This document shows positions 1-19,400 of a DNA stretch of 64,000 nucleotides, in pieces. The notes beneath the pieces were generated by a model that saw nothing but the letters and a program-made list of their open reading frames with translations, did no database searches and had not been told where the DNA came from. The DNA is taken from positions 1-64,000 of the forward strand of contig JAZDDZ010000008.1 of the NCBI GenBank assembly GCA_043809245.1, in the 5' to 3' direction. How positions within the stretch are numbered: the first letter of the stretch is position 1; every line of letters starts with the position of its first letter. This DNA is from Candidatus Iainarchaeum sp. (GTDB taxonomy: Archaea > Iainarchaeota > Iainarchaeia > Iainarchaeales > JAZDDZ01). The translations under genes were made by a program, and so were the position numbers.

Positions 1-141
1 AAAATCACCAACGCAGCAAGCGAAGCATTCAACAACAAAATCGGTCTACTGAAAAGACGAGCATACGGTTACAAGGACTTGGAATACTTCAAACTCAAAA
101 TCATAAACTCATGCTGGAGGTCCTAAATATGCAGAAGAGCC
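1..141 (+). mobile_element. Right end of an ISL3-family insertion sequence (transposase C-terminus 1-126 plus terminal IR ending at 141)
   Basis: Frame 1 reads KITNAASEAFNNKIGLLKRRAYGYKDLEYFKLKII...stop at 126, the typical ISL3 C-terminal motif (TNAxxExxNNKIxxxKRxAYG). The terminus ...GCAGAAGAGCC is GGCTCTT on the minus strand, the ISL3 end signature. Confidence 0.88.
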
Positions 142-350: not shown

Positions 351-869
351 TCACTGATTAATTGCGAGATTTTGAGGAGCATTCGCCTCTACATCTTTCT
401 TTTTCTGCTGCTTTTGTTCGCCGAAGTATTCAGTGAATTTTTTTGTGGTGTAAAGTACGAAAGTGATTCCTTTTTTTTCACGCCTGATAAAGCCCTTTTC
501 ATTGAGCATGTGAATGTGGTCATAGGCTTTTGTGTTGCGGTATTTGATGACATCAGCCTGCTTTATGGGCTGCTTGTAGGCAATCAATGCAAGTGTTTTC
601 ATCACGCTTTTGTTGAATTCGCTTGAAGCGGCTAGATGCCGAACCTTTTGCTCCAAATCGGGCTTGAGCCCCATGCGATAGCCTGCCGGCTCTTCCTTTA
701 TCTCCAAAGCTGAATCCCTTTCAAGGTAATTGCTTGAAAGCTCGTTCAATGCCATCCTTGCCTCTGCAATGCTTACTCCTGAAATCCGCGCTAGCTCGTC
801 AACAGGCATGTGCGTTGGCGCAATGAATAAGGCGGCTTCAATTGTTTTCTTGGTTTCCTGCAATTCCAT
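351..869 (-). CDS. scpB: SMC-ScpAB complex subunit ScpB
   Basis: IEAALF, KTLALIAYKQPIKQADV, YTTKKFTEYFG motifs. Confidence 0.93.
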   Translation of the reverse strand: MELQETKKTIEAALFIAPTHMPVDELARISGVSIAEARMALNELSSNYLERDSALEIKEEPAGYRMGLKPDLEQKVRHLAASSEFNKSVMKTLALIAYKQPIKQADVIKYRNTKAYDHIHMLNEKGFIRREKKGITFVLYTTKKFTEYFGEQKQQKKKDVEANAPQNLAINQ

Positions 870-3025: not shown

Positions 3026-3976
3026 TTAAAGATTTAATTCTTTATATGTGTTTTTAAAAGAAGCCGATATTCCAATGGGTTTAACTTGCGCTAAGGCCCT
3101 CTCCCTTAAATCATTTAAGATTTTTATGTTCTCCTTTTTGTGCGTCATTGCCTTGATTGCCTCAAAGTTTTGAATGAAAAAAAATGGGAAGCCCTGGACA
3201 GCTTCACTAATAGTTGGGTAAACCTTTTTTTCTTCAAATATTTTTTTGGTTTCCTTTGGATCTACTTGTTTCCCAGGGTATTCTTTGATAACCCCATTTT
3301 CTAAATTAAAAGTTGAACCTTTAATTTTTTTTACTATATCCATAAAGGTTTTGTTTTCCCTAAACTCTTTCCGCATATGTAAATTCTGAACCCATTCCGA
3401 AAAATCCGTGGTTTTGAAATAAAGCTCAATAATTTTTTCTACAAACGCACTTTTTTTCTTATATTCTGGTTTCACCATATCCTGTAAACTTATTTTTTCA
3501 GGCGCATCAGGCAGATTTATTTTGTTATCAGAATAGTATCCATCCCTTTTGTTATCAGAATAGTATCCCTCCTTTTTTCTCACAAAGGATATTGTTATTG
3601 TTGGATGATCATCTTTCAATTCAGAATGGTATAGGCTCACAAAGCAGTTGAGGGTTAATTTTTGGAAATTAACTGAATAATATTTTTCTTTCAAATCTTT
3701 TGAATGGCCTGTTATGTAATCAGCTTTTTCAAGCAAGTAAACCCTTTCGGAAATAGTAGGCTGGCTTTTCCCCAAATGCTCTGCTAATTTTTTTTGGCTA
3801 TCAAAACCTTTTACTATTGAAAAGAGTGTTTCACCAAATTCCCTGCTAATCCTTATGCCTTTGTATTTTTTAAGAATCTTAATGGCCTTGGGATCCTCTC
3901 TAATTTTTTTAATGAGAAATTCATCCCGCATAAACTCTTTCATATACCCTTCTCTCCTTATTGATCTGTCATGCAT
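3026..3976 (-). CDS. Winged-HTH regulator (putative element repressor); start may be 3943
   Basis: SQKKLAEHLGKSQPTISERVYLLEKADYI HTH; divergent from the replication operon. Confidence 0.7.
   Translation of the reverse strand: MHDRSIRREGYMKEFMRDEFLIKKIREDPKAIKILKKYKGIRISREFGETLFSIVKGFDSQKKLAEHLGKSQPTISERVYLLEKADYITGHSKDLKEKYYSVNFQKLTLNCFVSLYHSELKDDHPTITISFVRKKEGYYSDNKRDGYYSDNKINLPDAPEKISLQDMVKPEYKKKSAFVEKIIELYFKTTDFSEWVQNLHMRKEFRENKTFMDIVKKIKGSTFNLENGVIKEYPGKQVDPKETKKIFEEKKVYPTISEAVQGFPFFFIQNFEAIKAMTHKKENIKILNDLRERALAQVKPIGISASFKNTYKELNL
3520..3568. repeat. 27-bp-period in-frame tandem duplication (GYYSDNK twice)
   Basis: TTTTGTTATCAGAATAGTATCC at 3520 and 3547. Confidence 0.9.
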
Positions 3977-4142
3977 CTATCTATTACTAAACACAATACA
4001 TTTTAAAAATATTGCCTGGCGCTTTAAACTGCAAATAGTTGCCTATTACTGCTTTAAAATGGCAATAAACCATTTATAGCTAATCGCTCTTAATTGGCTA
4101 TGAATGGATTTCTTTTTAATTATTTATTGCTGAAAGTAATAT

Positions 4143-4328
4143 ATGTCAGAGCTGAAACCGCAAACCTGTGCCAAATGCGGGCAAATATTAATGGATAAAG
4201 CCTATTTTGAGCAAATACACAACAAGCCATTTCTTTATGCCTTACAGCAACTTGAGCTCTGGCAATCGTTAAAAGAAGAGGGAAAAAAGCATGGAAAAGG
4301 ATCAAAACAAGGGCCTGAGCAAGATTGA
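4143..4328 (+). CDS. Small hypothetical protein with CxxC
   Basis: First ORF of the rightward operon; CAKCG motif. Confidence 0.55.
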   Translation: MSELKPQTCAKCGQILMDKAYFEQIHNKPFLYALQQLELWQSLKEEGKKHGKGSKQGPEQD

Positions 4329-6198
4329 GGCCTCTATTTTCAGGCAATACGAACCTATTCTGGCAAAAGATTGCGTTTATAACTGTTTAAAGGAAACCCT
4401 ACATAATGGCCAGGTAATCAAGGAAAACCTGTTTAATTGTTATGAGTGCTATAAGGGGAAGGGCCAGAATCGCATTATTCTGATAACCCAAATGCAGGAA
4501 AGCCTGCCCCTGGGAGAAATAGAGTTGTGTTTTGCCCCATTGAAAATAATGGAAACCCAGGCTGGAAAAGAATTTGAGCTCATAGAGGAATTCAAGCCAT
4601 ACATTGAGCTTTATGGATTAACAAAGATCAGCCCTAAAAACTTGATTGAAGGCATTAAAGAAGAGGCAGTAGAAAAAGAAATTTTCCTAACCCCTGAGAT
4701 GTTAAAGGAAAAAATCTGGGAGGGCCTGAAAGACATTGCCTGGGGCAACAAAGAAGGCATATATAGCAAACTATTCTACAAAAAAATCCCTCCAGTGGAT
4801 ATCAATGCGGTTTTAAGGTTTTCAAACAAAGAGGCAAATGAAAAAATTGATGCATTCATTGATGATAACTGCAACAAGGATCCTGTAATAAATTATTTAT
4901 TCAAGCATTCAGTTTTGTTTCCAAATATCAATGTGGTGAAACCCCATAGATATCAACCATTTAACCCTCATCAAATTTTGATTACCAATTCTGGAACCGC
5001 TAAAACAACCACTGCAGAAAAATTCGGAAGGGTATATGAGAACGCCTCAATCATTGGCCTGGTGGGATATGCGGATGCTCAAAAGATTTGCTATGGAACT
5101 CTTCATAACTCCTATCAGGATATTGCGCTTGATGAACTTGAGGCGGTCCAGGAATCGGATATTTACTCCAAGTTTTTGAAAATTTTGCAGGATGGAAAAA
5201 CCACTTCCGCAAAGGCAGGCAGAGAAATCCCATGTAGAAGCTGGAGCCCTCTTAGAATAATGAGCAACCCCGTGAGATTGAGAGCTCAAGAAAGCCTTTT
5301 TATAAACGATTATGAGCTTGTGCAAATTTTTGAGGATCTTATTAACTGCATTACCAAAAACCCAGAGGCCCTGGGCAATAGAATTCCCATAGTGCTTTTC
5401 AGCAAAAAAATAAAGGCATTGAAGAAAGGCGCTGCAGTGCATCCCCTTGAAGAAATTGAAAGGCTTCAGAAGTATGTGCAAACCTTAGGAGAGCTTGCGA
5501 AAACAAATTATTCCAGGCTATTCAATGAACAGAGAGTTGTTGAATGGTTGAGACAAGGTTATCCAGAGCAGTATGAGAAAGAGGTTAAGGCCTTAGCTGC
5601 AAGCGAAGAGGATGCAGGCTTCCAAGTGTTCAGGGATTTTCTAAATGGCTCAGTTGAAGGCTCTGGGGCCACACACTGCAGAGGTTTTGCCCTCAAGCAA
5701 GCCTGTGTGGATTCCATAATGGATTTAATTAACGGAAGGCACGATATAGGAAAACTACTCAAGGATGCGGATTTCCACTTCCAAAAAATCTTAGGGATAA
5801 ACCTGAAATCCTTTGAATCTATTGTGGAGATAACCCAAAAGCAAAACCTCATGGCGCAGTTAGTGGAGAGTAGATTCCATGCCCTGGCAAAGGAAGGCCA
5901 GATCCTGTGCAGTGTTTTAAAACAATTCCTGGCGAAAGAGCTCCCTGAATCAAGGGAAATCATTACTGATTCATTCCAGGCCCTTCTCTTGGAGAATGAG
6001 GCATTCAAAGGCACAGGAAGGAGCCTCCCCACCTATTGGAGCAGGCTTTTCAAGCAGAGGAAGAGGCTGAACCTGCAATTCATGGCCCTGGGCTTTGAGT
6101 TGGGCCAGAGGAAAACAAAGGTGGGAATGATCCAATTCGTTAAAATTCTGGATGAAGCACTGCTTAAGCTCCTAAAAACAGGGGAGGAAACGAAATGA
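4291..6198 (+). CDS. Divergent MCM-like AAA+ helicase
   Basis: Walker A NSGTAKT, ASIIGL, Walker B IALDE, pre-sensor hairpin TTSAKAG, sensor-1 IMSNP, candidate Arg finger ALGNRIP. Confidence 0.8.
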   Translation: MEKDQNKGLSKIEASIFRQYEPILAKDCVYNCLKETLHNGQVIKENLFNCYECYKGKGQNRIILITQMQESLPLGEIELCFAPLKIMETQAGKEFELIEEFKPYIELYGLTKISPKNLIEGIKEEAVEKEIFLTPEMLKEKIWEGLKDIAWGNKEGIYSKLFYKKIPPVDINAVLRFSNKEANEKIDAFIDDNCNKDPVINYLFKHSVLFPNINVVKPHRYQPFNPHQILITNSGTAKTTTAEKFGRVYENASIIGLVGYADAQKICYGTLHNSYQDIALDELEAVQESDIYSKFLKILQDGKTTSAKAGREIPCRSWSPLRIMSNPVRLRAQESLFINDYELVQIFEDLINCITKNPEALGNRIPIVLFSKKIKALKKGAAVHPLEEIERLQKYVQTLGELAKTNYSRLFNEQRVVEWLRQGYPEQYEKEVKALAASEEDAGFQVFRDFLNGSVEGSGATHCRGFALKQACVDSIMDLINGRHDIGKLLKDADFHFQKILGINLKSFESIVEITQKQNLMAQLVESRFHALAKEGQILCSVLKQFLAKELPESREIITDSFQALLLENEAFKGTGRSLPTYWSRLFKQRKRLNLQFMALGFELGQRKTKVGMIQFVKILDEALLKLLKTGEETK

Positions 6199-6290
6199 AG
6201 AAATTGGAGCCTATACTGGTTTTTTGGTTTGATCCTTTGGATGGCCCAAAGTTTACTGTGTTGTTTGATAAAAAGGAGGAAAAAAAATGA
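6195..6290 (+). CDS. 31-aa microprotein
   Basis: ATGA overlap with the helicase stop, GGAGG upstream; MKKLEPILVFWFDPLDGPKFTVLFDKKEEKK. Confidence 0.5.
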   Translation: MKKLEPILVFWFDPLDGPKFTVLFDKKEEKK

Positions 6291-6415
6291 ACCCCCCCAC
6301 CTTGCTTGGCAAAATGGCTAAAATGGCTATTATGGCTGGCGTTTTCCAGCTAAATTCAGTAGCCAAATTAGCCAAAACAGCCTTTTTGCCAGGGCAGGTA
6401 GGGGCTCTTTTTTTT
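6279..6415. repeat. Symmetric inverted array of GGC/GCC boxes, candidate replication origin
   Basis: GGC at 6308/6316/6325/6334 and GCC at 6362/6371/6380/6388 (spacing 8,9,9 mirrored as 9,9,8); flanking A- and T-tracts. Confidence 0.6.
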
Positions 6416-6443
6416 AAAAATCAACCATTGGAGGTGGTTTTGA

Positions 6444-6767
6444 ATGTCTTTAAAGAGAAATAGAGGGATAACTCAAGCGGATTATCTGGCGGCAGGATTT
6501 GATGAAACCGAGCCGACGGAGCCGACAGCAGCAGAGAAAGCGGATGGATTGCAGCAAGCCTTTGACAAGGCACAAGCGAAATGGCAGGACATACTGATTA
6601 TGGTGGGGAATGGTAATTGCTTGATGCAGTGCAATTTCACGCCGACAGATTTGAGAGCATTCATTGATGACATCAAATACATGGAGAAAATGGGGCAGGA
6701 TGCGATTGATGGAATCAAAGAAATGATTCAGCGAATAGAAAAGGAGGAACCGAATGAACGAAAATAG
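6444..6767 (+). CDS. Hypothetical protein
   Basis: GGAGGTGG RBS; operonic. Confidence 0.7.
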   Translation: MSLKRNRGITQADYLAAGFDETEPTEPTAAEKADGLQQAFDKAQAKWQDILIMVGNGNCLMQCNFTPTDLRAFIDDIKYMEKMGQDAIDGIKEMIQRIEKEEPNERK

Positions 6768-7056
6768 AACCGATCTGCCTTTTCTGGCAGCAAAATATGA
6801 TGCTATTGGTGTGCCATTCAAGCATTTGCTTGAAGTTGTAATGGGCAAAATTCCAGGCACAGGCTGGTATCCTATTCAAAAAAACAAGAAGGATGTTGGT
6901 TTGCTGTGTTTTGAACTTTCAAAAGACAAGGAAACTCTTTGGGTTAGTTTTCTTTGGCACGACTTGGAATGGGAAAAGCATGAATTGAAAGAAAAAAAAA
7001 GATTGCTTGAAAGACAACCACTGGAGGCGGTTTTAAATGCAAAAAAAACAAAATGA
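6754..7056 (+). CDS. Hypothetical protein
   Basis: GGAGG RBS; overlaps both neighbours. Confidence 0.65.
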   Translation: MNENRTDLPFLAAKYDAIGVPFKHLLEVVMGKIPGTGWYPIQKNKKDVGLLCFELSKDKETLWVSFLWHDLEWEKHELKEKKRLLERQPLEAVLNAKKTK

Positions 7057-7384
7057 AAAAAAGAATGAGAAAGAAATACGGATAGCAGCCATTGAATGGG
7101 TTAATGCAAAAATTGCAAGGCTAATGAATGAAATGGTTGCATTGGAGGAAGCCCACAGCAAAGCAAAAAAAACAGCGAGATCAATAAAGGATCTTAACTT
7201 TGTTCAGGCCCTTGTTAAGCAAAACCTTGAGCGTTGGGAGCGCCTTGATGAGGAACTATTAAACACCGAAATGGATTATGGAGAGGCAAGAGCTTTCATT
7301 TGTGCATTCCAGCCAGGCCAGGGAATTAATAAAGCCATTCTCGGAAATCCCCCGAAAGAATTGGAGGAAGATGAAGATGATTGA
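7037..7384 (+). CDS. Hypothetical coiled-coil protein
   Basis: GGAGG RBS; helical heptad pattern. Confidence 0.65.
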   Translation: MQKKQNEKKNEKEIRIAAIEWVNAKIARLMNEMVALEEAHSKAKKTARSIKDLNFVQALVKQNLERWERLDEELLNTEMDYGEARAFICAFQPGQGINKAILGNPPKELEEDEDD

Positions 7385-8438
7385 AAACAAGGGAAACCTA
7401 AACGAAGAGGCTATTAGGTTTTACTATAAACAATTACAGCACGAAGAGGAAACAGAAATAAGGCATGGCATAGAAAATAATTTTTCATCAGATTTCGTGC
7501 ACAGCGCAGATGCTTTTCTTTATGTTTGCCAGCGCTGGAATGGCATTCATAACATATACGCTGGCCTGAATGAAAGAAAACAGGGGGGCACAAAAAGCGA
7601 GCATGTTATAACCGCAGATAAATTCAGGCTTGATATTGAAAGAAAGGAAAGCAAACGAAAGGCAACAGAGGAAGAGATAGATAAAGCTGAAAAAGTTGCG
7701 GATAAAATCATGCTGTGGTTTAAAGAGCAGGGTTTTGATGAACCGCTTAAAGCCTTTACTGGAAATGGCTTTGCTTTGATCTGCTATCATAAGCCATTCA
7801 AAGAACTGAATCAACAAAAAAGAAACAGCATAGCAGAAAAATATAATTCCTTTTTTGAAATGGTAAAGCAAAAATTTGAAACAGAGGATATAAAGATTGA
7901 TAAAACACACGATCTGGCGAGAGTGGATAGGGTAATTGGAACCTGGAACCTTAAAGGGGAGCGCTTGAGTTTTTTCTGCAATGCCCAGGGTTTTGAAAGA
8001 AAGGATAACCTGAAACTGATTGAATTCTTTGAGGGTTTAAAGATTGAAAAGCCAGGAACAGCAAGGGGAAGCCAGGCAAAGGTTAAATTAACTGCCTGGG
8101 AGATTTTGCGGAAAAAACACCCTGATAATCAGGAGCGCTGCAGTTGTGTGCTGAAAATATTCAACAGGCAAAGGGCGAAAGGATGGGGTGTGAATGAGAT
8201 TTGCGAGTATATTGCAAAGAATTGTGTATGGGATGATTATGATCCTGTGCGAACAAGAACCATGATTGAGGATTATTTGAGCAGATATTTTGAGAATCCC
8301 AATCCTTTAACGCAAAAGAAGGCGTTCAGGCTCCGCTATGATTGCGAATGCGGAAGGGTTTATTTTCTGGCCCCTATTAGTGAACAGGTGGTTAATTGTT
8401 CTTGCGGAAAACTTAGGAGAGTTGTTGTTTATGGTTGA
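7377..8438 (+). CDS. AEP-superfamily primase-polymerase-like protein with C-terminal Zn ribbon
   Basis: Motif I-like RLDIE, motif II-like FTGNGF, motif III IDKTHDLARVDRVIGTWN; C-terminal CECG...CSCG; start placed after GGAGG. Confidence 0.75.
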   Translation: MIENKGNLNEEAIRFYYKQLQHEEETEIRHGIENNFSSDFVHSADAFLYVCQRWNGIHNIYAGLNERKQGGTKSEHVITADKFRLDIERKESKRKATEEEIDKAEKVADKIMLWFKEQGFDEPLKAFTGNGFALICYHKPFKELNQQKRNSIAEKYNSFFEMVKQKFETEDIKIDKTHDLARVDRVIGTWNLKGERLSFFCNAQGFERKDNLKLIEFFEGLKIEKPGTARGSQAKVKLTAWEILRKKHPDNQERCSCVLKIFNRQRAKGWGVNEICEYIAKNCVWDDYDPVRTRTMIEDYLSRYFENPNPLTQKKAFRLRYDCECGRVYFLAPISEQVVNCSCGKLRRVVVYG

Positions 8439-8578
8439 ATTGAATTGCCAAAAAAACGCAAATAATGGCGTTTTGCCCTATACCTTGCTATCCTTAAACA
8501 AAATCTTAACGCTTACATACAAGTTATTTAAATGCTCTTTTAACTGCCTGCTTAAACAAACGCCAGAGGGGTGTTCTA

Positions 8579-8890
8579 ATGAAAATTAGGCACAGGGCCT
8601 TTGATTGCCTCAATAAACCCAGGTATAACATCTTACTGGCTTTAAGGGATGTTTTGCTTGAAGTAAGGGAGTTATGCCAGGCCACAGGTCTGAGCTGGCA
8701 TAATTGTTATTATCATTTGGAGATCTTGCAAGAAAAAAAACTGGTTGAAAAGATTGCATCAAAAAAAGAGAACCTTTCAAGGAAAACATACAGGAAAGAA
8801 AGGCCAGTGAACAGGTTCAAATTAACACAGTTAGGCTCTGAGGCGCTTGAATATTTTCCTAACTCTAAATTAGGGGGAAAATATTTATGA
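8579..8890 (+). CDS. ArsR-like winged-HTH protein
   Basis: PRYNILLAL...VRELCQATGLSWHNCYYHLEILQEKKLV...FKLTQLG. Confidence 0.8.
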   Translation: MKIRHRAFDCLNKPRYNILLALRDVLLEVRELCQATGLSWHNCYYHLEILQEKKLVEKIASKKENLSRKTYRKERPVNRFKLTQLGSEALEYFPNSKLGGKYL

Positions 8891-9027
8891 ATATGGAATG
8901 CAGGGCAAGACTAAGGGCATCCAATGCTGCCCATCCCTCTTCCCTGCACATATTGGACAGCAAGTTATGGTTTGGCTTGCTGTTCCTATTCCTCCATAGG
9001 GGCGCAAGAATTGGATGTCTTGCGCCC
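8890..9027 (+). ncRNA. Putative structured RNA: three stem-loops with a predicted loop-loop pseudoknot
   Basis: Stems 8890-8910/8938-8954, 8957-8967/8973-8983 (with G-U pairs) and 9000-9009/9018-9027; loop ATTGGATG is complementary to CATCCAAT (8918-8925). Confidence 0.6.
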
Positions 9028-9056
9028 ATTTCCTCTTTTCAGGCAGTTGATCTCAA

Positions 9057-9233
9057 ATGAATTTGAAAAGAAACCTTTACAGGAAAGGAAATAGTTTTTT
9101 CACAGGAATCCCAATCCAGGCCCTGGGTAATTTGAACAAAGAAAAAAAATATTCTGTTCTCTGGGTTTTTGATCCTAAAAAAGATTGTTGGGAGATTCGT
9201 TTTGAAGAAAGAAATGAGGAGGGGAAAAAATGA
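9057..9233 (+). CDS. AbrB-like small DNA-binding protein (58 aa)
   Basis: MNLKRNLYRKGNSFFTGIP resembles a swapped-hairpin start; ATGA-coupled. Confidence 0.6.
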   Translation: MNLKRNLYRKGNSFFTGIPIQALGNLNKEKKYSVLWVFDPKKDCWEIRFEERNEEGKK

Positions 9234-9349
9234 AAGTTAAATTCACTTGCTGCTCTTGCGAGCAGCGAATAACAAAAGGTTCAGGCAAGCGCCTGATTGT
9301 ATGCAATTCTTGCCATGAAAAGCTAACAGAAAACTTGGCGGTGGTTTGA
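9230..9349 (+). CDS. 39-aa zinc-finger microprotein
   Basis: CCSC...CNSC; GGAGG RBS; ATGA overlap. Confidence 0.55.
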   Translation: MKVKFTCCSCEQRITKGSGKRLIVCNSCHEKLTENLAVV

Positions 9350-9459
9350 TGCAGCGGGAACGGGTTGCGCAGTGCGAAATGTGCCGAGAAAAACCAGTTA
9401 AAGTTTTTTTTGTGGGTTGCCTTTGGCTTTGTGAAACTTGTTTAAAGGAGGGAGAATAA
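9349..9459 (+). CDS. 36-aa zinc-finger microprotein
   Basis: CEMC...CETC; TGATG overlap. Confidence 0.55.
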   Translation: MQRERVAQCEMCREKPVKVFFVGCLWLCETCLKEGE

Positions 9460-9849
9460 ATGCCCACTGCATTTGAGCAAAGATTGAAAGACAAATCCAA
9501 AAGAATGATTTTGAACCTTGACGCTTCAAGCCAAGAAGAACTTTACTCGGAGATTGCGAAAATGGAGGAACACGGTTTCAAGTTATGGCGAGTTAAAGAA
9601 TATCAAACAGAGTTTTTTGGAGGTATTAAAGCGGTCTTAATTCGTGGAATGTCTGAAAAGGATGAAGACGCGTGCTTGTTTTGCGGAAAGGAAGTGTTGC
9701 AAAATGGGGTTTTTCTAACGCCTTTAAAACCCACTGGAGAGTCTACAAGGATTTGTTTTTCTTGCTTGGATGTTTTTAATTTTTTGCAGGCAAGGTTTTG
9801 GGAAAAGAAGAATAAAATTAAAAAACAAAAAAAGGAGGTGAAAAAATGA
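9460..9849 (+). CDS. Hypothetical protein with C4 zinc finger
   Basis: CLFC...CFSC (ClpX-type spacing). Confidence 0.7.
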   Translation: MPTAFEQRLKDKSKRMILNLDASSQEELYSEIAKMEEHGFKLWRVKEYQTEFFGGIKAVLIRGMSEKDEDACLFCGKEVLQNGVFLTPLKPTGESTRICFSCLDVFNFLQARFWEKKNKIKKQKKEVKK

Positions 9850-10013
9850 ATGATTTAAAATTAATGAACGAATACGCGCAAAAGCGGTTTGCGAAAGCCG
9901 AGAAAAACAAAAAGCGACCTTTAAGCGCTTTTGAAACGTGCCAAATGATTGAGATAATTGAAAACGAAATCAAGCACGGGTTTCATTTACCTAAAAAGGA
10001 GGAAAAAAAATGA
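9846..10013 (+). CDS. 55-aa microprotein
   Basis: GGAGGTG RBS; ATGA overlaps at both ends. Confidence 0.55.
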   Translation: MNDLKLMNEYAQKRFAKAEKNKKRPLSAFETCQMIEIIENEIKHGFHLPKKEEKK

Positions 10014-10924
10014 ACGAAGAAAAGCAAAGAACAGATGTAATGCCTTACTTGGTTGCACATTCGCCTTTTCTGGCGGATGTTTGGCGACAGGTTCACCGAA
10101 ACAAAGGCTCGCAAATAATTTTAGTGAATGGCCTGCCGAGAACTGGAAAATCCGAGCTTTGTTTGGTTTTTGCCCACGCATTAGACCCGAACTTTTCAGT
10201 GCAGAATAATGTTGCGTTCAACAAGCTGGAATTTTTGCAGTTAGTGCGAAAAAACAAATATGTTGGCGCGGTGAACATTTGGGAGGAAGCAGGGTTAATG
10301 GAATACGGTGCAAGTGCCAGAGAGTTTTGGAGTGCGGATAACAGGCGAATGAGCAGCTTGTTTCAGTCAATGGGTTTTCACCGCCAAATTTGCATTGTGA
10401 ACCTGCCTCAAAAAATAATGCTGGACAAGCACTTGAGGTCGCTGTGCCACTGGATTGTGGAAACAAAAAGCATTGACGTGCAAAGAGGAAAAGTGAAGTT
10501 TAAGGTTTTTCACATTCAGCCAAGCGACAAAATTTTTTACAAAAAATATATCAGGGTTTTTGAAGATGGTGGCGTGACAAAGATTATGTCTTTTGTTGCC
10601 CCAAGACCCCCACAGCATATTCTGGAAGAATACTGGGCGAGGGAAAAATTGTTCAAAGACATGGTTTCGGATAACTTGGAGAAGGAAATGCTGGAAGAGG
10701 AAAAAAAACCTAACGATAGCGAGACAAGGAAGCTGACCACGCAGAAGAGAAACGCTGCATTGGTTGAAGCGATTGCCAAAGAGCCTAAAGCGTTCAGCAA
10801 GCCAAAGAAAAACAAGTTGGAATTGAACGCTGACTTGATTGCAGGCACATTTGGAATTTCTGTGCCAACGGCAAGGGTAATTAAAGCGCTTTACACGCAA
10901 CAGCACGGCGAAGTCAAGATATAG
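10010..10924 (+). CDS. Zot/viral packaging-like P-loop ATPase with C-terminal HTH-like tail
   Basis: Walker A GLPRTGKS, Walker B NIWEEAG, IVNLPQKIMLDKHLR. Confidence 0.72.
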   Translation: MNEEKQRTDVMPYLVAHSPFLADVWRQVHRNKGSQIILVNGLPRTGKSELCLVFAHALDPNFSVQNNVAFNKLEFLQLVRKNKYVGAVNIWEEAGLMEYGASAREFWSADNRRMSSLFQSMGFHRQICIVNLPQKIMLDKHLRSLCHWIVETKSIDVQRGKVKFKVFHIQPSDKIFYKKYIRVFEDGGVTKIMSFVAPRPPQHILEEYWAREKLFKDMVSDNLEKEMLEEEKKPNDSETRKLTTQKRNAALVEAIAKEPKAFSKPKKNKLELNADLIAGTFGISVPTARVIKALYTQQHGEVKI

Positions 10925-11048
10925 GAATAAAAAAAAAGCAAATAACATTTGCCTTCCTATTAATGACTTGTATAGTGGTTTCGGCGTGGCGTTCTTTCCT
11001 TGACTTAAACATAAAACCTTTTTCTGCTTTTCGCAAGCATTTCTTTGT

Positions 11049-11801
11049 ATGGATTACTGCAAAAATTGCGAAACCCGCTTGTGCTGTAAAAACATAGCAT
11101 TGCCTGTAGAATTGAGCATATTTGATATTTACCGAATAGCCAAAGATAAAGAAATTAAGTTATCCGATTTGTTTTCTACGCAATGTGCTCTTATACCCGT
11201 TAAATCAATTCACCCCTATTTTGCAATATGGTTCAGTTTTGGGATACACTGTTCTTTTCTAACTGATACGGGGTGTGCTTGCCATAAAGTGAAGCCAGTA
11301 ACTTGCATGCAGTTTCCCGCTTCAATTATATTCCAAAGAACAATTGATGATTATTCTATGTATCCCTGTGAGAAATTTGTCTTGCCTGAACAAGACTCCC
11401 TTAATGATTTGAGTCAATTTCACAGGAAAGAAATGCGCAAACATTATGCGCTTGTTTTTAATAACAGGATTCCAATTCTGCCTGTTAAAAATCTGCCAAA
11501 AAAAGAACTGGCTGAAATACTTGCTAATGATTCTAAGATATCGGCTTTGAATATATCTCAAACTAAAAGAAATGAATTGGCATTAGAGTTTATGATTCCA
11601 TTAGCAAATAATCTTATGATGAAATCCGATTTGACTTATGAATTTCATTTTGAGGATGGTCGCTCTGAAGAAATTACTGTAAATTTATGGCAGCATAGTC
11701 TTGAACGAATAAAAGAAATTGAACAGAATAGAGGTTTCACACAGCAGGCTGAATTTTATTCAAGAAAATATTCTAAGATTAGAAAAAAATACATGATATA
11801 A
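11049..11801 (+). CDS. YkgJ-family cysteine-cluster (Zn/Fe-S) protein, cargo gene
   Basis: CKNC...CC, CSFL...CACH..KPVTCMQFP. Confidence 0.8.
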   Translation: MDYCKNCETRLCCKNIALPVELSIFDIYRIAKDKEIKLSDLFSTQCALIPVKSIHPYFAIWFSFGIHCSFLTDTGCACHKVKPVTCMQFPASIIFQRTIDDYSMYPCEKFVLPEQDSLNDLSQFHRKEMRKHYALVFNNRIPILPVKNLPKKELAEILANDSKISALNISQTKRNELALEFMIPLANNLMMKSDLTYEFHFEDGRSEEITVNLWQHSLERIKEIEQNRGFTQQAEFYSRKYSKIRKKYMI

Positions 11802-11986
11802 CACAAAAGATTAACAGCCCTTTGCACGGCGGGGGGGCAGTTTAAAACTTTTTCAAGATTGGCTCACAGGCTTACATTACCGCCTCGTTAATAGTATAGT
11901 GGCACACCCCCCTATTCTTTATATTTAATTTAAGTTAGAAATAGAGCCTGTTTTTTTGGCCTTTGCTTAACTGAAAGAGTTTATTG

Positions 11987-13423
11987 TTATTTTGCATCTA
12001 CTTTTTGCCTTAACTCTGAAATCTCTTGCCTCATTTGCTGCATTATTTCAACCACTGCCCTGTTATCAAGCTCTTCAATCTGTTTGCTCTTTCTATCCAG
12101 ATCTAATGCAGCCTGAATAGTTAGGGGAGTAGAACATTGTAAGCAAAATTTTTCACTTGGAGAGTTTTGCTTTCCGCAAATTTCGCAGGTTTTGGGTTTC
12201 AAAACATCTTCCTCTTCCTCTCCTTTTTCCAAGAGCCCTGCCTGTTTCAATATGGCTTTATCTAAATCCCTATGGCTCAAATGCACATACACTTTAACCA
12301 TATCTGAATCACTGCCCCATCCAGCGAAAAGCCTTAACTCAGATTCAGTTAAACTTTTGGCAAGCTCTGTTAATCTTGAATGCCTCATTAAGTGGGGCCA
12401 TATTGGTTTAGTTTTAAACCCTGCTTGCCTTGCAGCATTCTTCAGCAAGCGGTTTAAGTTGTTTACTCCAAGCCTGGCTTGTTCTTTGCTCCTTGTTGAA
12501 TCAGCAACCCAAAGCGGGGCATCAGGTTCATCTTTGAATGGGTGGATGGAAAGCCATTGGGCAATGTAAGGAATTGATTTGATTAACCTTATGGGCCTAT
12601 CGCCAGTTTTACCGCTTACAACAATCATATAGGAATACTTGTCTTTTTTCAGCGAACCCACATCTAAATCCAAAAACTCCGATGCCCTTGCAGCAGATTC
12701 GTAAAGGCAGGATATGATGGCCTTATTCCTAATGTTTTTTTCTTTATCAATCAAAGCAAGGATTTCTTTCGGATAATAAATATCTTTCGGGAGCTTTGAT
12801 CTATCCCTGTCAATTTTAATCCATTCAACAATTTCCCCTTTCTGCAGCCATTTGAAAAAACACTTTATCTGGGATTTGAAAGTGCTGATTGATTTTTTTG
12901 CATACCTTTGCTTTTCAATGGGGGCAAATTTATCAGGATCCTTTCCAATAAAAGTTAGTGTGTGCGGAACAGGTTTAGGCGCTGTGTGGCCTGGTGTTAA
13001 AGCGAAATCATCAGGGCATTCTTTTGCGATATTGTTCATCATGGTTCTTGCATAAAAACGAGAAATCTTAAAATGCTCTCTAACTTGGGGAGAAGTTATC
13101 TTTCCCTTTTTTGCAACCATTCTTTTAAGATCCAAAACCTTGCCATAGTTTTTTTTCCTCATTCGGCCTAACTCATTCACAAAGCCAATCAATTCTTCCT
13201 TACTCATTTTTTTGAATGGCTTGCTGAGGTAATGATCTAACTGGAGCATGGTTTTCAGGAAGTGGATCCTGGTTGAGGGAACCTTTCCATTAGTGCCTAT
13301 GCCTTGGGCCTCTCTTTCAGCATCATACTCTAAAATGAGTTTCTTGTTTTCCGCAGGGATGTGTGGGTTATCCTTAATTTCCTGTATTGTTCTGTTCAAA
13401 TAGCCTGTTTTATCGTCAGCCAT
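11987..13423 (-). CDS. int: Tyrosine recombinase/integrase with C-terminal Zn ribbon
   Basis: Catalytic residues: SAARASE (R), GKTG (K), HLMRH, GW, VYVH (Y); CEIC...CLQC; adjacent to att. Confidence 0.93.
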   Translation of the reverse strand: MADDKTGYLNRTIQEIKDNPHIPAENKKLILEYDAEREAQGIGTNGKVPSTRIHFLKTMLQLDHYLSKPFKKMSKEELIGFVNELGRMRKKNYGKVLDLKRMVAKKGKITSPQVREHFKISRFYARTMMNNIAKECPDDFALTPGHTAPKPVPHTLTFIGKDPDKFAPIEKQRYAKKSISTFKSQIKCFFKWLQKGEIVEWIKIDRDRSKLPKDIYYPKEILALIDKEKNIRNKAIISCLYESAARASEFLDLDVGSLKKDKYSYMIVVSGKTGDRPIRLIKSIPYIAQWLSIHPFKDEPDAPLWVADSTRSKEQARLGVNNLNRLLKNAARQAGFKTKPIWPHLMRHSRLTELAKSLTESELRLFAGWGSDSDMVKVYVHLSHRDLDKAILKQAGLLEKGEEEEDVLKPKTCEICGKQNSPSEKFCLQCSTPLTIQAALDLDRKSKQIEELDNRAVVEIMQQMRQEISELRQKVDAK

Positions 13424-13459: not shown

Positions 13460-14188
13460 CTATTTCACTATGCTAATGAATATTTCCCCGAACCAGTCGT
13501 CTTGCCATAGCGTGATTTTGCCTTTGTTGTGAAGGAACAGGCAGGGGATGAATGTGTCCACTATTTTGTAGGAGTTTGTTTCAGAGCCGTTTATTAGGCG
13601 GGAGAAAAGCACTAAGCCTTGGCTGTCCGCGTTTTCTTTGATTTTTTCAAAGACGACCTCCATTTTTTCGTCAATGTTTTCGGAAGCGAAAGGAATCTTG
13701 AATTCAGGCACTTCAATCGGCCTTTCCTTTAAGCGTTTCTGCTTTGTTTTTTCAAGCACGGCTTCAATGCTTTCAACAAGTTCATCCAATGAAATTCTGC
13801 CTTCCTTTATTTTTTTGATGTTCATTAATTCAGGCAATTCTGAGTCAAGCTGCCAAAGCTCCCTTTGCCTTGCCTCCTCTTGTTTCAGGAACTCGTCATC
13901 CTCATCCAAATCGCTTAAGCGCAGAACACGGCTCTTGAACTTCAATAGAATTGCGGATGCAAGGATTGCATTTGCAGGAAGCCTTAAATCAGTGTTTTCA
14001 AGCGCTGAGATTTTCTTGATGTATTTGTCCGCCAATTCAGCTATGTCAATGCCCCATGCATCCATTTTCTCTGATTTAACCAAGTCAAGCAGAATTGTTT
14101 TCCATGCAGGCTGGTCTATGAGGTCCACTAAGTCTATTTTTCCTTCGTGTGCCTGCACTTCAGCGTTAAAAGAAGCCTCTTCAGCCAT
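13460..14188 (-). CDS. scpA: Segregation and condensation protein ScpA (kleisin)
   Basis: MDAWGIDIAELADKY, AILLKFKS, LFLHNKGKITLWQDDWFGEI. Confidence 0.92.
   Translation of the reverse strand: MAEEASFNAEVQAHEGKIDLVDLIDQPAWKTILLDLVKSEKMDAWGIDIAELADKYIKKISALENTDLRLPANAILASAILLKFKSRVLRLSDLDEDDEFLKQEEARQRELWQLDSELPELMNIKKIKEGRISLDELVESIEAVLEKTKQKRLKERPIEVPEFKIPFASENIDEKMEVVFEKIKENADSQGLVLFSRLINGSETNSYKIVDTFIPCLFLHNKGKITLWQDDWFGEIFISIVK
13475..13492. repeat. att core, right copy, inside scpA
   Basis: Exact match to 2782-2799. Confidence 0.92.
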
Positions 14189-16448: not shown

Positions 16449-19400
16449 TTATTTCACTAACTGTGATTCAACGCATTTAGTTGCAGGGGTTATTTCGCTC
16501 GGGTAATATTTTTCAAGTTCCGAGTAAAGGAATTCTGTGTTCCACCAGAAATTAACGCGGTTTTCGGAGATGCCCGCGCATGCTTTTCCATTGGATACAA
16601 GGCTGAAAATATTTTCCAAAGAGTCAATGCTTATCCCGAGCCTTCCGTTTTCCTCAATGGGGGCAGTGAAACGCAGGTCAAAGGGAACAGTGTTCTGGTT
16701 CACTAAATTGCCCTGAGGTGAAATGATTGTCTCATTGTTGCAGGAAGCGTAAAGCTGTATTTTCTGGTTTTTTGGCGTGAAGAAAATTGATTTAAGGTAA
16801 ATGTAGTCATTTGGTTCGGCGTTGCCCCATGCAAATCCCCTGAGTGCGCTATCCGCTTCGTTTAAGCCCTGGCAGCCAAAAGAGAAATTGCCAAGCGGGT
16901 AATCGTTTCTCTCATAGAAAAGGTAGTTGCCAGTAAAGTCAAGGCATGCATCTGATTCAATGTTTCTCACAGTTGAAGCAGCGCCATCCCAAAGGCTGGT
17001 GTAAGAGCCCAATTCAATGGGTATTGTTTTCCCGTATTCCTTCAAGTGATAGAATGCGCCTGCTTCGCCGCTTGCATTTGCCTTTAACTTCATTGCAACA
17101 GGCGTTGCATCGCTTGGGGAAAACTTGAATGAAACAGGCCCGTTTGCAGAATTCATTGTGATTAATGCAAGGCTTCCCCTGTTTGTTTTGTTTGTCGTTG
17201 TAAAGTCGTTTATGTACTTTGCCTGCACGCTTGCAAGGCCTGTTCCTCCTGGCTTGGTTTCAATTTCCTCGAGGTTGCCTGAGGAAAAGCTTCTTATCGG
17301 CAGCGCGTCACCGCTGTAAGAGGAGCCATAGCCTTCCCTTAAGAGAACACCGTTTTGTTCGCCGATCATTGAATCAAATGGCATGAAGTAAAGCGGGTTT
17401 GCGTCCTTTGATTCCTGGAGGCTGTCAATCTTTACCTTCACTTTAACGTTAGGCGAGTCATCTGATTTGAAGAAGCGGCCTATCTGCCCGTCATCAAATG
17501 AAAGCTCTATGTTCACCGAGTAAAGCCCTGGTGCGGGCAAGGGCGACACATTATAGCGGGGATTATTTTCAGGCGCCTGCATTGAAGTGAAAACAAACCT
17601 TGTTGAATCGGAGAAAACCCTTGAAAAAGCCCTTGAGCCCGAGACAAACCACTGGTTTGGCCCGAAAAAATCCCTGTTAACAGCGGAGTAAGTGAAGTCA
17701 GCCTGGAAGTCAGGCGAAAATCCATCCTTCATAAGGTATGCCTGGAAGTGAAGCAAGGGGTCAATTTGCCCAATGTTTCCATCAGCGTACAGTGCTTCAA
17801 CCATCTGGAGTTTTTTGAGAACTTCAATTGTGAACTGAGTTGAATCGCAGTAAACAAATCCGGGATTGGAGTAATCGCATGTGCCAATCGGAATGTTCTG
17901 CCACAGCCAGCTTAGTTTCAGGCGCGGCAATGCGTTTTCTCCAGTGAAGCCAATTTCATCGTTCACGCCGTAACACGTGTTTTCTGTTCCTGCTTCAAGT
18001 TTCACGTGGAATTTTTCGGATTCAGTGCCGTATTTCGGCGGGCAGCTTGAATCGCATTTTCCATCCATGTCATAGTCAACGCAGGCGTAAAGGTCTGCGC
18101 CCTGCTTCAGGATAAGCACGCGGTTTTCATCCGTTGAATAATTTGCCTCGCATCCCGGGGAAATGGTTGCAAAGTCAAGGATTTTTTTTGAAGGAGTCCT
18201 GTCGTCTTCAGTGCAAAGCGTTGCAATGCCGCTCACCGTGCTCAGCCCGATTGGCGCTTCATTGTAATCGGGAACCGGCGCAGGAGTGATTGAGCCTCTT
18301 TTTAATGCATTGAATGCAATGCAGTAATAGGTTCCCCCTGCCTTTGGGCTTGCAATGTAATCCCAGTTATCATAAGTGTAGACATCGTTGTGGCAGTACA
18401 CTTCAGCGCTTTCATTGCGGCTGCTGGTTCCGCCGCTGAAACCCACATAAGTTCTTGTGTCCTTGAATGCCTCGCGCACCCAGATGCGCGGCGTGTCATT
18501 CAACTGGCTTATCTCCGCTTTTGCCTGCCCGCTTTCATCGGTCGGCCCGAAAGTGTGCCAGCCGCTTCCCGCAATTCCAACAGTGTCCTTTGGCTTTGAA
18601 ACTCCGTCATAGCCCCACTGGAAACTCCAGCCGCTTTCAACGCGGCAGCCTGGATGGGTTTTAAGGAAATCAATCGCAGTGTTTTTTGTTATGTCTGGGC
18701 CGCCTGCGCCCCAGTTCGGGAGGTCGCTTTCATGACTGCATAGTATCTTGGTTGCAATTATTGTGGCATTGCTGTTTGGCGGAGCTGAACAGCCTGAAAG
18801 GCTCCATTCAAAAGTAATGTCGTTGACGTTTCCTGTTGGCTTCCTGTCGCTGTGGTCTTCAACTGAAAGCAAGGCATACTGTGTTGAGGGAAGCCCTGTG
18901 TTGACAGCATCAAAGGCTATTTCGCTTCCCAAGTCAACGTCTTTTCCCTTAAACCTTCCAAAAACCCTGCCTTTAACTTCAAAGTTGTTTGTGCTTTTCT
19001 TGGTTATCGTCAGGCTTGAGGGGTCAATCCATGAAACAACAAGGCCGTTTGAATTGTTTTCAACTGAAACGCTTACCTGCTGGACTGTTGCATCAGCAAT
19101 TGTGGTGAATGAAAAATTTATTTCCCCAAGGTCATAGGTTATGTCCTGCGGCTGCACAAGGCGAACCATTTTTGGCGTGCTGCCGAATTCCTCGTTCACG
19201 ACTGCGCGGGTGAATTTTGCCTCAACCAATGGCTTGAAGAAAGCATAGCCTTCGGCTGCATCATCCAATGAGAATTCAAGGTAATCGGATCCGCTGTGGC
19301 TCACTGAAACAGTGGGCTGCCTGTTTGCCTGCTGTGCGGTGAGCCTTGCCTCAACAATGCCGTTTAAGCCTAACCATTCTTCATTGCCGTAATTCGCAAC

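What the first reader, a model, noticed from the sequence alone, without database searches (positions are those of the whole stretch)
8887..9060. Three-hairpin RNA with a predicted 8-nt kissing loop, embedded in a coupled ORF
Seen: stem 1 AATATG..TGCAGGGCAAGA/TCTTCCCTGCA.CATATT with inner hairpin GGGCA/TGCCC. Stem 2 ACAGCAAGTTA/TGGCTTGCTGT has two G-U pairs, favouring + strand RNA. Stem 3 is a perfect 10 bp, GGGCGCAAGA/TCTTGCGCCC. The whole stem-3 loop (ATTGGATG) is the exact complement of CATCCAAT at the stem-1 apex and competes with the inner stem, suggesting a switch. The region is also a 57-codon ORF with ATGA overlaps at both ends. Known: satellite P4 (CI RNA) and phage P1 (c4) use small structured RNAs in early operons for immunity. 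Inference: an undescribed cis-regulatory, immunity or ribozyme-like RNA gating the downstream ATPase genes.
Basis: partly seen in the sequence, partly recalled or inferred. Interest (0 to 1): 0.82.

Follow-up and report, generated by a model that had tools for sequence, protein, structure and literature searches.

The report
Orphan three-hairpin spacer in archaeal mobile element
A real and unusually stable cluster of three hairpins sits between a small regulator gene and the next genes of a plasmid- or virus-like element integrated in a small archaeal genome, but no relative exists to show whether it acts as RNA or as DNA.

Summary
Window 8890-9027 folds into three hairpins: H1 8890-8954, H2 8955-8985 and H3 9000-9027. 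MFE z is about -4 on either strand, as RNA or DNA. Its windows rank 5, 7 and 15 of 11,961 in a scan of about 40% of the genome. The H3 loop is the exact complement of 8918-8925 (p about 0.002). A 57-codon ORF with ATGA overlaps at both ends spans it.

The interpretation cannot be tested. No Rfam family matches. No homologue appeared in the own genome, 150 genomes of the order, 30 related loci, or the phage, plasmid and viral collections. Covariation is therefore unavailable.

The host is an archaeon, so the P1/P4 analogies are only loose. H1 aligns as an inverted, expanded copy of H3, which would produce the "kissing" complementarity by itself. The nested "switch" fold is 15 kcal/mol worse.

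My best guess (0.4) is a sense-strand intercistronic mRNA structure that limits transcription or translational coupling into the downstream genes. Rivals are a DNA element such as a pRN1-like origin, a relic palindrome inside a real or spurious ORF, and an antisense RNA.

The parts
8890..8954 (+). Hairpin H1: 22 Watson-Crick pairs in four segments, a 3-nt bulge, a 1-nt bulge, a 4x5 internal loop, and the inner hairpin GGGCA/UGCCC with the 8-nt loop UCCAAUGC
   Evidence: The inner hairpin alone has -6.9 kcal/mol.
8955..8985 (+). Hairpin H2: 13 bp and a 5-nt loop. Three G-U pairs on the + strand become A-C mismatches on the - strand.
   Evidence: The - strand fold keeps only 7-8 of these pairs.
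9000..9027 (+). Hairpin H3: a perfect 10-bp stem (7 G-C pairs) with the 8-nt loop AUUGGAUG. As DNA it is a 28-bp 10-8-10 palindrome.
   Evidence: It is the top terminator-like site on the + strand. It is one of 3 GC-rich perfect hairpins among 38 in the genome.
8918..8925 (+). CAUCCAAU, the exact complement of the H3 loop 9010-9017. Six nucleotides lie in the H1 loop and two in its inner stem.
   Evidence: p = 0.002 for a complement of at least 6 nt between two loops. The duplex energy is -4.7 kcal/mol for 6 bp and -8.4 for 8 bp.
8986..8999 (+). Single-stranded linker carrying the anti-Shine-Dalgarno-like UUCCUCC (8990-8996)
   Evidence: One search shows it mostly unpaired. Its complement GGAGGAA is the SD of five genes of the operon.
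9028..9056 (+). Pyrimidine-rich tail AUUUCCUCUUUUC after H3, then an unstructured run up to the next start codon
   Evidence: It has no run of five or more T.
8887..9060 (+). 57-codon bridging ORF with ATGA overlaps at both ends and a weak SD (AGGGGGA, about 10 nt upstream)
   Evidence: Codon score is 0.063 bits/codon, the 5th percentile of host in-frame windows and typical of off-frame sequence. No protein homologue was found. Atlas recognition is 1203 and the best hit scores 0.77. The chance that a 167-nt spacer stays open is 0.14.
8579..8890 (+). First gene of the transcription unit: a 103-aa winged-helix (ArsR/HTH_20-like) protein
   Evidence: HTH_20 at 1e-5 and HTH_5 at 6e-5. It matches only itself in the 5.8-billion protein set.
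8526..8533 (+). The only TATA-like motif (ATTTAAAT) in 8400-9300 on either strand, 46 nt upstream of the wHTH start. It is the likely promoter of the unit. The TATA consensus I searched with is recalled.
9057..9233 (+). 58-aa gene directly after the element. Of the 18 start positions examined, this one, 7278 and 11049 have no recognisable Shine-Dalgarno; 7278 and 11049 are not ATGA-coupled starts, so 9057 is the only ATGA-coupled gene without one.
   Evidence: Pfam gives no AbrB hit.

Best explanation
The element is a structured intercistronic segment of a sense-strand polycistronic mRNA. The mRNA belongs to a roughly 12-kb plasmid- or virus-like element integrated in a small archaeal (DPANN-type) genome.

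The unit is probably transcribed from the single TATA-like promoter at 8526. The first cistron is a winged-helix regulator. Three very stable hairpins follow, and then a chain of small genes leads to a P-loop ATPase.

I propose that the hairpins set how much expression passes from the regulator gene to the rest of the unit, in two ways that do not exclude each other:
- H3 plus its U/C-rich tail pauses or terminates part of the transcripts, and protects the 3' end of the short regulator mRNA.
- The 57-codon ORF is translated only as a bridge. Ribosomes that finish the regulator gene re-initiate at the ATGA, unwind the hairpins, stop at the second ATGA and re-initiate on the next gene, which has no Shine-Dalgarno of its own. 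Its translation would then depend on passage through the structure.

What is shown: the structure, its rarity, the ORF geometry, the missing SD and the lack of any separate promoter motif.
What is inferred: transcription of the unit, any attenuation, any coupling, and any loop-loop contact.
For: - Structure is extreme for this genome: z about -4, and windows ranked 5, 7 and 15 of 11,961.
- All three non-Watson-Crick pairs are G-U on the + strand and would be A-C on the - strand. That is at best 8:1 for the sense strand.
- The element lies inside a co-directional gene chain in which 7 of 15 junctions are ATGA overlaps.
- Most starts there carry GGAGG 6-9 nt upstream, while the gene at 9057 has none.
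- A non-coding 167-nt spacer stays open in the linking frame in 14% of dinucleotide shuffles. With the 1-in-3 length requirement, that is about 5%.
- H3 with its tail is the best terminator-like site on the + strand in 3900-12000. The - strand has no such tail after it.
- No TATA-like motif lies near the hairpins on either strand. The only one in 8400-9300 is upstream of the wHTH gene. This argues against a separate sRNA or antisense gene.
- The ORF looks non-coding by codon usage and amino-acid composition: K+E is 5% against 20% in the element's genes. The Atlas search agrees. This fits a pass-through frame rather than a protein.
- Coupling by termination-reinitiation at ATGA/TGATG overlaps is reported in archaea and bacteria (PMC6728339; I saw only the title and the start of the abstract in the listing).
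Against: - There is no homologue, so no covariation and no conservation evidence at all.
- No expression data could be obtained.
- The - strand and single-stranded DNA fold as significantly as the + strand RNA.
- The energy difference between strands is only 1.5 kcal/mol.
- From my own knowledge, archaeal termination relies on oligo-T runs rather than hairpins. The tail has no run of five or more T.
- Stop codons are few in several frames here: 1-3 per frame, and ORFs of 33 to 56 codons are open in four of the other five frames. The open frame is therefore only weak evidence.
- The closest related elements show no comparable structure in an equivalent place. This holds for L012/L011 and for the second element on contig C4 of the same genome.
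Confidence: 0.4

Rival explanations
1. It is a DNA-level element of the mobile element's replication or recombination machinery. Candidates are hairpins or cruciforms that serve as a replication origin or priming site for the neighbouring prim-pol and ATPase, palindromic binding sites for the adjacent winged-helix protein, or a lox/dif-like 10-8-10 recombinase site (H3) with a decayed inverted partner (H1).
For: - The element sits in a replication module. The 386-aa gene 450 nt upstream belongs to a primase-polymerase family of 493 proteins, many fused to helicase-type domains.
- The 635-aa gene matches the C-terminal half of such fusions at 29% identity, E 2e-53.
- In the archaeal plasmid pRN1, a roughly 100-nt stem-loop downstream of the prim-pol/helicase gene is required for replication. 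Its structure is conserved despite low sequence conservation (PMC4234260; abstract and passages read).
- The DNA fold has z -4.0.
- H1 is an inverted copy of H3.
- All three hairpins share a GCAAG...CUUGC core next to their loops.
Against: - The three mismatches are all G-T on one strand.
- Stems of 10-13 bp go far beyond what protein half-sites need, and the half-site spacings of 14, 15 and 34 bp are not constant.
- There is no adjacent AT-rich unwinding region and no turn in GC skew.
- The site lies inside a tightly coupled ORF chain rather than in an intergenic region.
- A better origin candidate exists at 6290-6410: inverted 3+3 iterons at 9-10-bp spacing followed by T8A5, 92 nt after the ATPase gene.
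- H3 is present only once in the genome, so it is not an att repeat.
Confidence: 0.25
2. It is a relic without a dedicated function. Local inverted and direct duplication of one palindromic unit left three hairpins in a spacer. The spacer is either a genuine orphan mini-protein gene or a spurious ORF that is tolerated because it keeps ribosomes flowing.
For: - H1 resembles the reverse complement of H3 with two insertions.
- All three hairpins share the GCAAG/CUUGC core.
- The element has no relative anywhere searched.
- The ORF has an SD-like AGGGGGA and fits the ATGA grammar of the operon.
Against: - 42 Watson-Crick and 3 G-U pairs without one disruptive mismatch inside the helices is hard to keep without selection, unless the duplication is very recent.
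- Codon usage, composition and the Atlas recognition score speak against a selected protein.
Confidence: 0.2
3. It encodes an antisense (- strand) countertranscript that controls copy number or expression, as in bacterial plasmids that combine a small repressor with an antisense RNA. Its hairpin loops would kiss the sense mRNA.
For: - The - strand folds as well as the + strand (-66.8 kcal/mol, z -4.35).
- The position, just after a small repressor-like gene and before downstream genes, resembles cop-rep control regions. This comparison is recalled, not tested.
Against: - There is no TATA-like motif on the - strand to the right of the element.
- G-U pairs become A-C mismatches on this strand, and H2 shrinks.
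- No Rfam antisense family matches.
Confidence: 0.07
4. It is a stand-alone trans-acting small RNA, riboswitch or ribozyme, the bolder half of the first reader's idea.
For: - The structure is very stable.
- Two exposed anti-SD-like CCUC(C) motifs lie in single-stranded linkers and could pair with the GGAGG sites of the operon.
- The two loops are complementary.
Against: - No Rfam match, with all known ribozyme and riboswitch classes in the library.
- No own promoter motif.
- No conserved junction or pocket can be argued without homologues.
- The three hairpins are simple, nearly perfect stems, unlike ligand-binding or catalytic cores.
Confidence: 0.05

Closest known systems
Stem-loop replication origin of the archaeal plasmid pRN1 and its family (PMC4234260)
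   Same: Both are archaeal mobile elements with a prim-pol replication protein and a small DNA-binding regulator. Both have a structured segment of about 100 nt or more downstream of the replication gene, with no sequence similarity between family members.
   Different: In pRN1 it is one long stem-loop in an intergenic region 54 bp after the replication gene. Here there are three separate hairpins, 450 nt after the prim-pol gene, beyond another gene and inside an ORF chain. Replication function was not tested here. The hairpin at 6290-6410 fits this model better.
Intercistronic palindrome clusters of bacterial operons (REP/BIME elements) and intrinsic terminators or attenuators (recalled knowledge)
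   Same: Both are tandem stable hairpins of related sequence in alternating orientation between cistrons of one operon. In both, a GC-rich stem is followed by a U-rich tail. Both act on mRNA stability and read-through.
   Different: REP elements occur in many copies per genome, while this element is single-copy. The host is an archaeon, where hairpin-dependent termination is not established. This element is also spanned by an open reading frame.
Leader-peptide and pseudoknot control of repZ in IncI/IncB plasmids (recalled; papers naming repZ and pseudoknot were seen only as a listing)
   Same: Both have a short ORF translationally coupled to the downstream gene. Both have a hairpin loop complementary to a distant sequence of the same mRNA.
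   Different: In the plasmids the long-range pairing sits next to the ribosome-binding site of the regulated gene and is blocked by an antisense RNA. Here the complementary partners are two hairpin loops 85 nt apart, neither near a start codon, and no antisense promoter is seen.
Phage P1 c4 and satellite P4 CI immunity RNAs
   Same: Both are small structured RNAs in an early operon of a mobile element.
   Different: Those are processed, trans-acting antisense RNAs of bacterial phages with target repeats in the same operon. There is no Rfam match here. The loop complements found elsewhere in the element are single 7-8-mers at chance level. The host is archaeal.
Simple tyrosine-recombinase sites of the lox/FRT/dif type (recalled architecture: inverted arms around a 6-8-bp asymmetric spacer)
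   Same: H3 is a 28-bp 10-8-10 perfect palindrome with an asymmetric spacer. H1 carries the same spacer inverted. A tyrosine integrase is encoded 3 kb away.
   Different: H1's arms are interrupted by 7- and 12-nt insertions. There is no second intact site in the genome. Nothing was tested.

Membership tests
Any described RNA family (Rfam 15, including ribozymes, riboswitches and phage/plasmid antisense RNAs) | Covariance-model score at or above the family's gathering threshold | tested here: not met
   One search found 0 matches in the whole 64-kb window. One search (8500-9500, E up to 10) found three matches at 13-17 bits against cut-offs of 65-197.
P1 c4 / P4 CI-type immunity RNA | Repeated target sequences in the same operon complementary to the RNA's loops (recalled definition) | tested here: not met
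   One search found the loop complements outside the element only as isolated 7-8-mers (for example GCATTGGA once at 7139), at about chance frequency and not at ribosome-binding sites. The one exact partner of the H3 loop lies within the element itself.
P1 c4 / P4 CI-type immunity RNA | Bacterial phage or satellite context | tested here: not met
   The host genome carries an archaeal SRP RNA at 133.5 bits, over the cut-off. A prim-pol relative comes from a record titled as a Woesearchaeota archaeon.
Conserved structured RNA (in general) | Compensatory base changes in homologues | not testable with these tools
   No homologue was found. Model R1 hits only itself in the own genome, in 150 further genomes of the order and in 30 related loci. 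BLAST found nothing in 60 relatives, phages or plasmids.
pRN1-type stem-loop origin | Structured element next to a prim-pol/helicase replication gene | tested here: inconclusive
   The prim-pol gene ends 450 nt upstream with another gene in between. DNA fold z is -4.0. Related elements L012, L011, L008 and L013 have no window below z -3.2.
pRN1-type stem-loop origin | Required for replication | not testable with these tools
   This needs a replicon assay.
REP/BIME-like or MITE-like repeated palindromes | Many copies dispersed in the genome | tested here: not met
   It is single-copy by BLAST and by covariance model. GCAAG-N6-14-CTTGC occurs 45 times against about 33 expected genome-wide, with no other cluster. 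The genome is 91.8% complete, so missed copies cannot be excluded.
Protein-coding gene (57-aa ORF) | Codon usage and composition like the genome's genes, and homologous proteins | tested here: not met
   The score is 0.063 bits/codon against a mean of 0.35 for host genes and 0.24 for the element's genes. 5% and 15% of in-frame windows score as low, against 59-82% of out-of-frame windows. No homologue was found. Atlas recognition is 1203.
Translationally coupled ORF chain | 4-nt ATGA overlaps with the neighbouring genes | tested here: met
   Searches show overlaps at 8887-8890 and 9057-9060. 7 of 15 junctions of the operon are of this type.
Intrinsic-terminator-like site | GC-rich hairpin followed by a T-rich tail on the transcribed strand | tested here: inconclusive
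   One search lists H3 first among 17 sites (9.2 expected). The tail has 5 T in 8 but no run of five or more T. Whether this archaeon uses hairpin terminators is unknown.

The most novel reading that the evidence does not exclude
A DPANN-type archaeal mobile element uses a three-hairpin RNA module embedded in a non-coding but translated bridging ORF. The module may be locked by a 6-8-bp loop-loop contact between H1 and H3. It would act as a gate on termination-reinitiation coupling and on read-through, between the element's repressor gene and its downstream replication or maintenance genes. This would be a cis-regulatory RNA device of a kind not described in archaea.
Probability: 0.2. Interest if true: 0.7.

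Novelty: new variant of a known kind. Interest (0 to 1): 0.4.

Why it matters
Very few cis-acting RNA regulators are known in archaea (from my own knowledge), and I found none described for mobile elements of the small-genome DPANN lineages. My one literature search on such elements was not aimed at RNA, so this is not a claim of absence from print.

If the hairpins gate expression between a repressor gene and the genes behind it, they would show how such elements balance silence and activity. They would also give a compact, testable model of structure-dependent translational coupling.

If instead they are a DNA origin, they would extend the pRN1-type stem-loop origin to a distant group of prim-pol elements.

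As it stands the element is a single orphan example, so its value is as a lead and not as a result.

Tried and rejected
Homologue searches that found nothing useful:
- BLAST of the element in its own genome found only itself.
- A 681-nt query in 60 relatives gave only 31-55-nt chance-level matches.
- Covariance model R1 was built from the single sequence. It was searched in the own genome (next best E 8.3), in 150 other genomes of the order (0 hits), in 17 loci (0 hits) and in 13 more loci (0 hits).
- Protein searches: the 57-aa ORF gave none. The wHTH protein matched only itself.
- Viral-contig scans with the wHTH protein, the prim-pol protein, the ATPase and alignment A4 gave none.
- The phage and plasmid collections gave no match.
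- The prim-pol route gave 16 metagenome loci and 1 genome locus at 29-44% identity. None has the element.
- A scan for the H3 stems with any loop found one hairpin in two near-identical viral contigs, with no H1 or H2. By my rough estimate (not computed), one such hit is about what chance gives for 20 fixed bases in that collection.

Ideas rejected:
- A second related element in the same genome (contig C4, 88% nt identity over window 9822-11177) has a 59-codon ATGA-coupled ORF after its replication gene. I took this for a positional analogue. Its fold is not better than shuffles (z 0.05 on +, 1.62 on -), so I dropped the idea.
- Related elements L012, L011, L008 and L013 show no window below z -3.2.
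- The 31-aa ORF 6195-6290 looked by eye like a paralogue of the C-terminus of the 58-aa gene. BLASTP does not support it.
- A secondary-structure switch between the three hairpins and a long-range H1/H3 duplex is 15 kcal/mol uphill.
- A MITE with target-site duplication: both ends carry ATGAAT, but ATGAA is the usual gene start in this operon and there is only one copy.
- A BHB or other intron: removing 8887-9056 does not fuse the flanking frames (read from the sequence).
- tRNA or tmRNA: none found.

Tools that gave nothing or were unavailable:
- Expression: no RNA holder was listed, and no run of any kind was listed, so read laying could not be used.
- Supplements of papers were not consulted. 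Table S1/S4 of PMC4234260 could refine the comparison with pRN1.
Full report
WHAT IS THERE. RNAfold of 8880-9065 gives three hairpins.
- H1 (8890-8954) has 22 Watson-Crick pairs in four segments. Its inner hairpin GGGCA/UGCCC carries an 8-nt loop.
- H2 (8955-8985) has 13 pairs, three of them G-U.
- H3 (9000-9027) has 10 perfect pairs, seven of them G-C, and an 8-nt loop.
- The MFE is -68.3 kcal/mol against -50.0 +/- 4.5 for 200 dinucleotide shuffles, z -4.0, and no shuffle does as well.
- The reverse strand gives -66.8, z -4.35. Single-stranded DNA parameters give z -4.0.
- The H3 loop (9010-9017) is the exact complement of 8918-8925. Six of those nucleotides are in the H1 loop and two in its inner stem.
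- ORF 8887-9060 (57 codons) overlaps the upstream stop and the downstream start by ATGA.

HOW UNUSUAL IT IS.
- I folded 11,961 windows of 150 nt, at a 50-nt step, on the + strand of contigs C1-C22. That is about 40% of the genome; the run stopped on time.
- After correcting the energy for GC, the three windows over the element rank 5, 7 and 15. Ranks 1-3 overlap or abut tRNA genes. Rank 4 is unannotated.
- Perfect hairpins with at least 10 bp and 3-10-nt loops occur at 38 loci in the 1.48-Mb genome. Three of them have stem GC of 0.6 or more, and H3 is one.
- Two random 8-nt loops of local composition share a complement of at least 6 nt with p = 0.002. A random loop finds a full 8-nt complement in the 113 nt upstream with p = 0.0015. 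With three possible loop pairs the corrected value is near 0.006.

CONTEXT.
- The genome has 1.48 Mb in 55 contigs and is 91.8% complete. It carries an archaeal SRP RNA. Its order consists of genomes of 0.5-1.5 Mb. One prim-pol relative comes from a record titled as a Woesearchaeota archaeon.
- The window has scpB at 351-869 and scpA at 13460-14188, both on the - strand. These genes are normally neighbours, which is my own knowledge. The roughly 12.6 kb between them holds a tyrosine integrase (11987-13423) and a + strand gene array from 4291 to 11801.
- The 386-aa protein (7278-8438) belongs to a family of 493 proteins, many fused to helicase-type domains. The nearest has 39% identity.
- The 635-aa protein (4291-6198) matches the C-terminal half of such a fusion, at 29% identity and E 2e-53.
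- The integrase matches that of the fused-type element L012, at 30% identity and E 4e-35.
- The hairpins therefore lie in an integrated plasmid- or virus-like element with a split prim-pol/ATPase replication module. I did not map the element's ends.

THE TRANSCRIPTION UNIT AROUND THE ELEMENT.
- After the prim-pol gene comes a 140-nt AT-rich gap. It holds the only TATA-like motif of 8400-9300 on either strand (8526-8533).
- The genes then follow in this order:
  - the wHTH gene (8579-8890; HTH_20 at 1e-5);
  - the element;
  - a 58-aa gene;
  - two zinc-ribbon mini-genes;
  - a 129-aa gene;
  - a 55-aa gene;
  - a 304-aa P-loop ATPase (weak DnaA-like PHROG match at 6.5e-5).
- 7 of 15 junctions of the whole array are ATGA overlaps.
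- Most starts have GGAGG 6-9 nt upstream. ORF57 has AGGGGGA at about 10 nt. The gene at 9057 has nothing.

IS THE ORF A GENE?
- Its codon score is 0.063 bits per codon. 5% of in-frame 57-codon windows of host genes and 15% of those in the element's genes score as low. By comparison, 59-82% of out-of-frame or antisense windows do.
- Alternative frames over the same DNA score about the same (0.058, 0.151 and 0.116).
- K+E is 5% against 20% in the element's proteins.
- No homologue was found. The sequence is absent from the large protein set, although its neighbours are present. The Atlas recognition value is 1203 and the best hit scores 0.77, which is chance level.
- On the other hand, a shuffled 167-nt spacer keeps the linking frame open in only 14% of trials. 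With the length requirement this is about 5%.
- My reading is that the frame is kept open but the peptide is not the point.

RNA OR DNA, AND WHICH STRAND?
- For sense RNA:
  - All three non-canonical pairs are G-U on the + strand.
  - H3 is followed by a pyrimidine-rich tail only on the + strand, and is the best terminator-like site of the region.
  - There is no separate promoter motif.
- For DNA:
  - The fold is equally significant as DNA and on the other strand.
  - The neighbourhood is a replication module.
  - In pRN1, a stem-loop downstream of the prim-pol/helicase gene is needed for replication and is conserved in shape but not in sequence (PMC4234260).
- Against an origin at this site:
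  - There is no AT-rich flank and no skew change.
  - It lies inside the coupled ORF chain.
  - A more origin-like structure exists at 6290-6410.

THE KISSING LOOP RECONSIDERED.
- H1 (8896-8950) aligns with the reverse complement of H3 and its flanks. The shared parts are the left arm GGGC(G)CAAGA, the 8-nt loop and part of the right arm. H1 carries a 7-nt insertion.
- The score is 24.5 against 13.0 in the direct orientation. 1 of 3000 random 10+8+10 hairpins aligns as well.
- All three hairpins carry GCAAG on the left arm. H2 and H3 carry CUUGC on the right arm, and H1 carries CUUCC.
- A palindromic hairpin copied in inverted orientation keeps its stem and reverses its loop. The complementarity is therefore expected from history and is not independent evidence of a contact. 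It does not exclude a contact either.
- As a nested alternative fold, the H1/H3 pairing costs 15.1 kcal/mol. Any interaction would thus be a tertiary loop-loop contact of 6 bp (-4.7 kcal/mol nominal) rather than a switch.

HOMOLOGUES.
- None was found by any route. Details are in Tried and rejected.
- The closest comparison is a second element on contig C4 of the same genome. It shares the 129-aa to 250-aa module at 88% nt identity but not the wHTH/hairpin part. Its own spacer after the replication gene is not significantly structured.

VERDICT.
I put 0.4 on a sense-strand intercistronic mRNA structure that throttles read-through and/or translational coupling from the regulator gene into the downstream genes. 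The 57-codon frame would act as a translated bridge.
- I put 0.25 on a DNA element (origin, binding or recombination site), 0.2 on a relic of local duplications with no dedicated role, 0.07 on an antisense RNA, and 0.05 on a stand-alone sRNA, riboswitch or ribozyme.
- It belongs to no described RNA family.
- Interest is moderate. It is a striking structure in a poorly known class of archaeal mobile elements, but it is a single orphan copy, with no expression or comparative support.

Noticed in passing
window 6290-6417: A second very structured segment in the same gene array. It is a roughly 120-nt imperfect long hairpin. The left arm carries ATGGCT three times and the right arm AGCCA three times, at 9-10-nt spacing, followed by T8A5. 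RNA fold z is -3.6 (+) and -3.8 (-), and its windows rank 10 and 26 of 11,961. It lies 92 nt after the 635-aa ATPase gene, inside a 58-codon ORF (6287-6463). That ORF's SD and start are 24/24 identical to those of the ATPase gene at 10010. This is a candidate replication origin.
   Followed up: partly
window 4070-4107: A 15-bp hairpin followed by ATTTCTTTTT, in the AT-rich gap upstream of the 635-aa gene. The window starting at 4001 ranks 34 of 11,961.
   Followed up: no
window 351-869 and 13460-14188: scpB and scpA, normally neighbours, are separated by about 12.6 kb that holds the integrase and the prim-pol array. The mobile element appears to be inserted between them. Its ends were not mapped.
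   Followed up: partly
G000 contig C4 45409-47404 (L054 about 9400-11400): A second integrated element in the same genome, with its own integrase and a 675-aa replication protein. It shares the 129-aa/55-aa/ATPase/250-aa module with the window at 85-88% nt identity. Its ATPase copy carries an in-frame TAA.
   Followed up: partly
window 1-141: The first 141 nt of the contig are 99-100% identical to the ends of seven other contigs: C4, C55, C15, C41, C10, C33 and C25. This is either a dispersed repeat that breaks the assembly or an assembly artefact.
   Followed up: no
window 8990-8996 and 9030-9037: Two anti-Shine-Dalgarno-like motifs (UUCCUCC and UUUCCUCU) lie in the single-stranded linkers of the element. 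Their complement GGAGGAA is the ribosome-binding site of five genes of the array. They may sequester SDs, or this may be coincidence.
   Followed up: partly
window 26147-26206: A tandem 12-nt repeat, TTTTCTCCACAG, four exact units and a fifth decayed one.
   Followed up: no
window 16449-23159 (- strand): A 2236-aa open reading frame, the largest in the window. It was not examined.
   Followed up: no
G000 contigs C14:1601-1750 and C9:2501-2650: Windows ranked 4 and 6 in the structure scan. They have no Rfam or tRNA match. These may be unannotated structured RNAs.
   Followed up: partly
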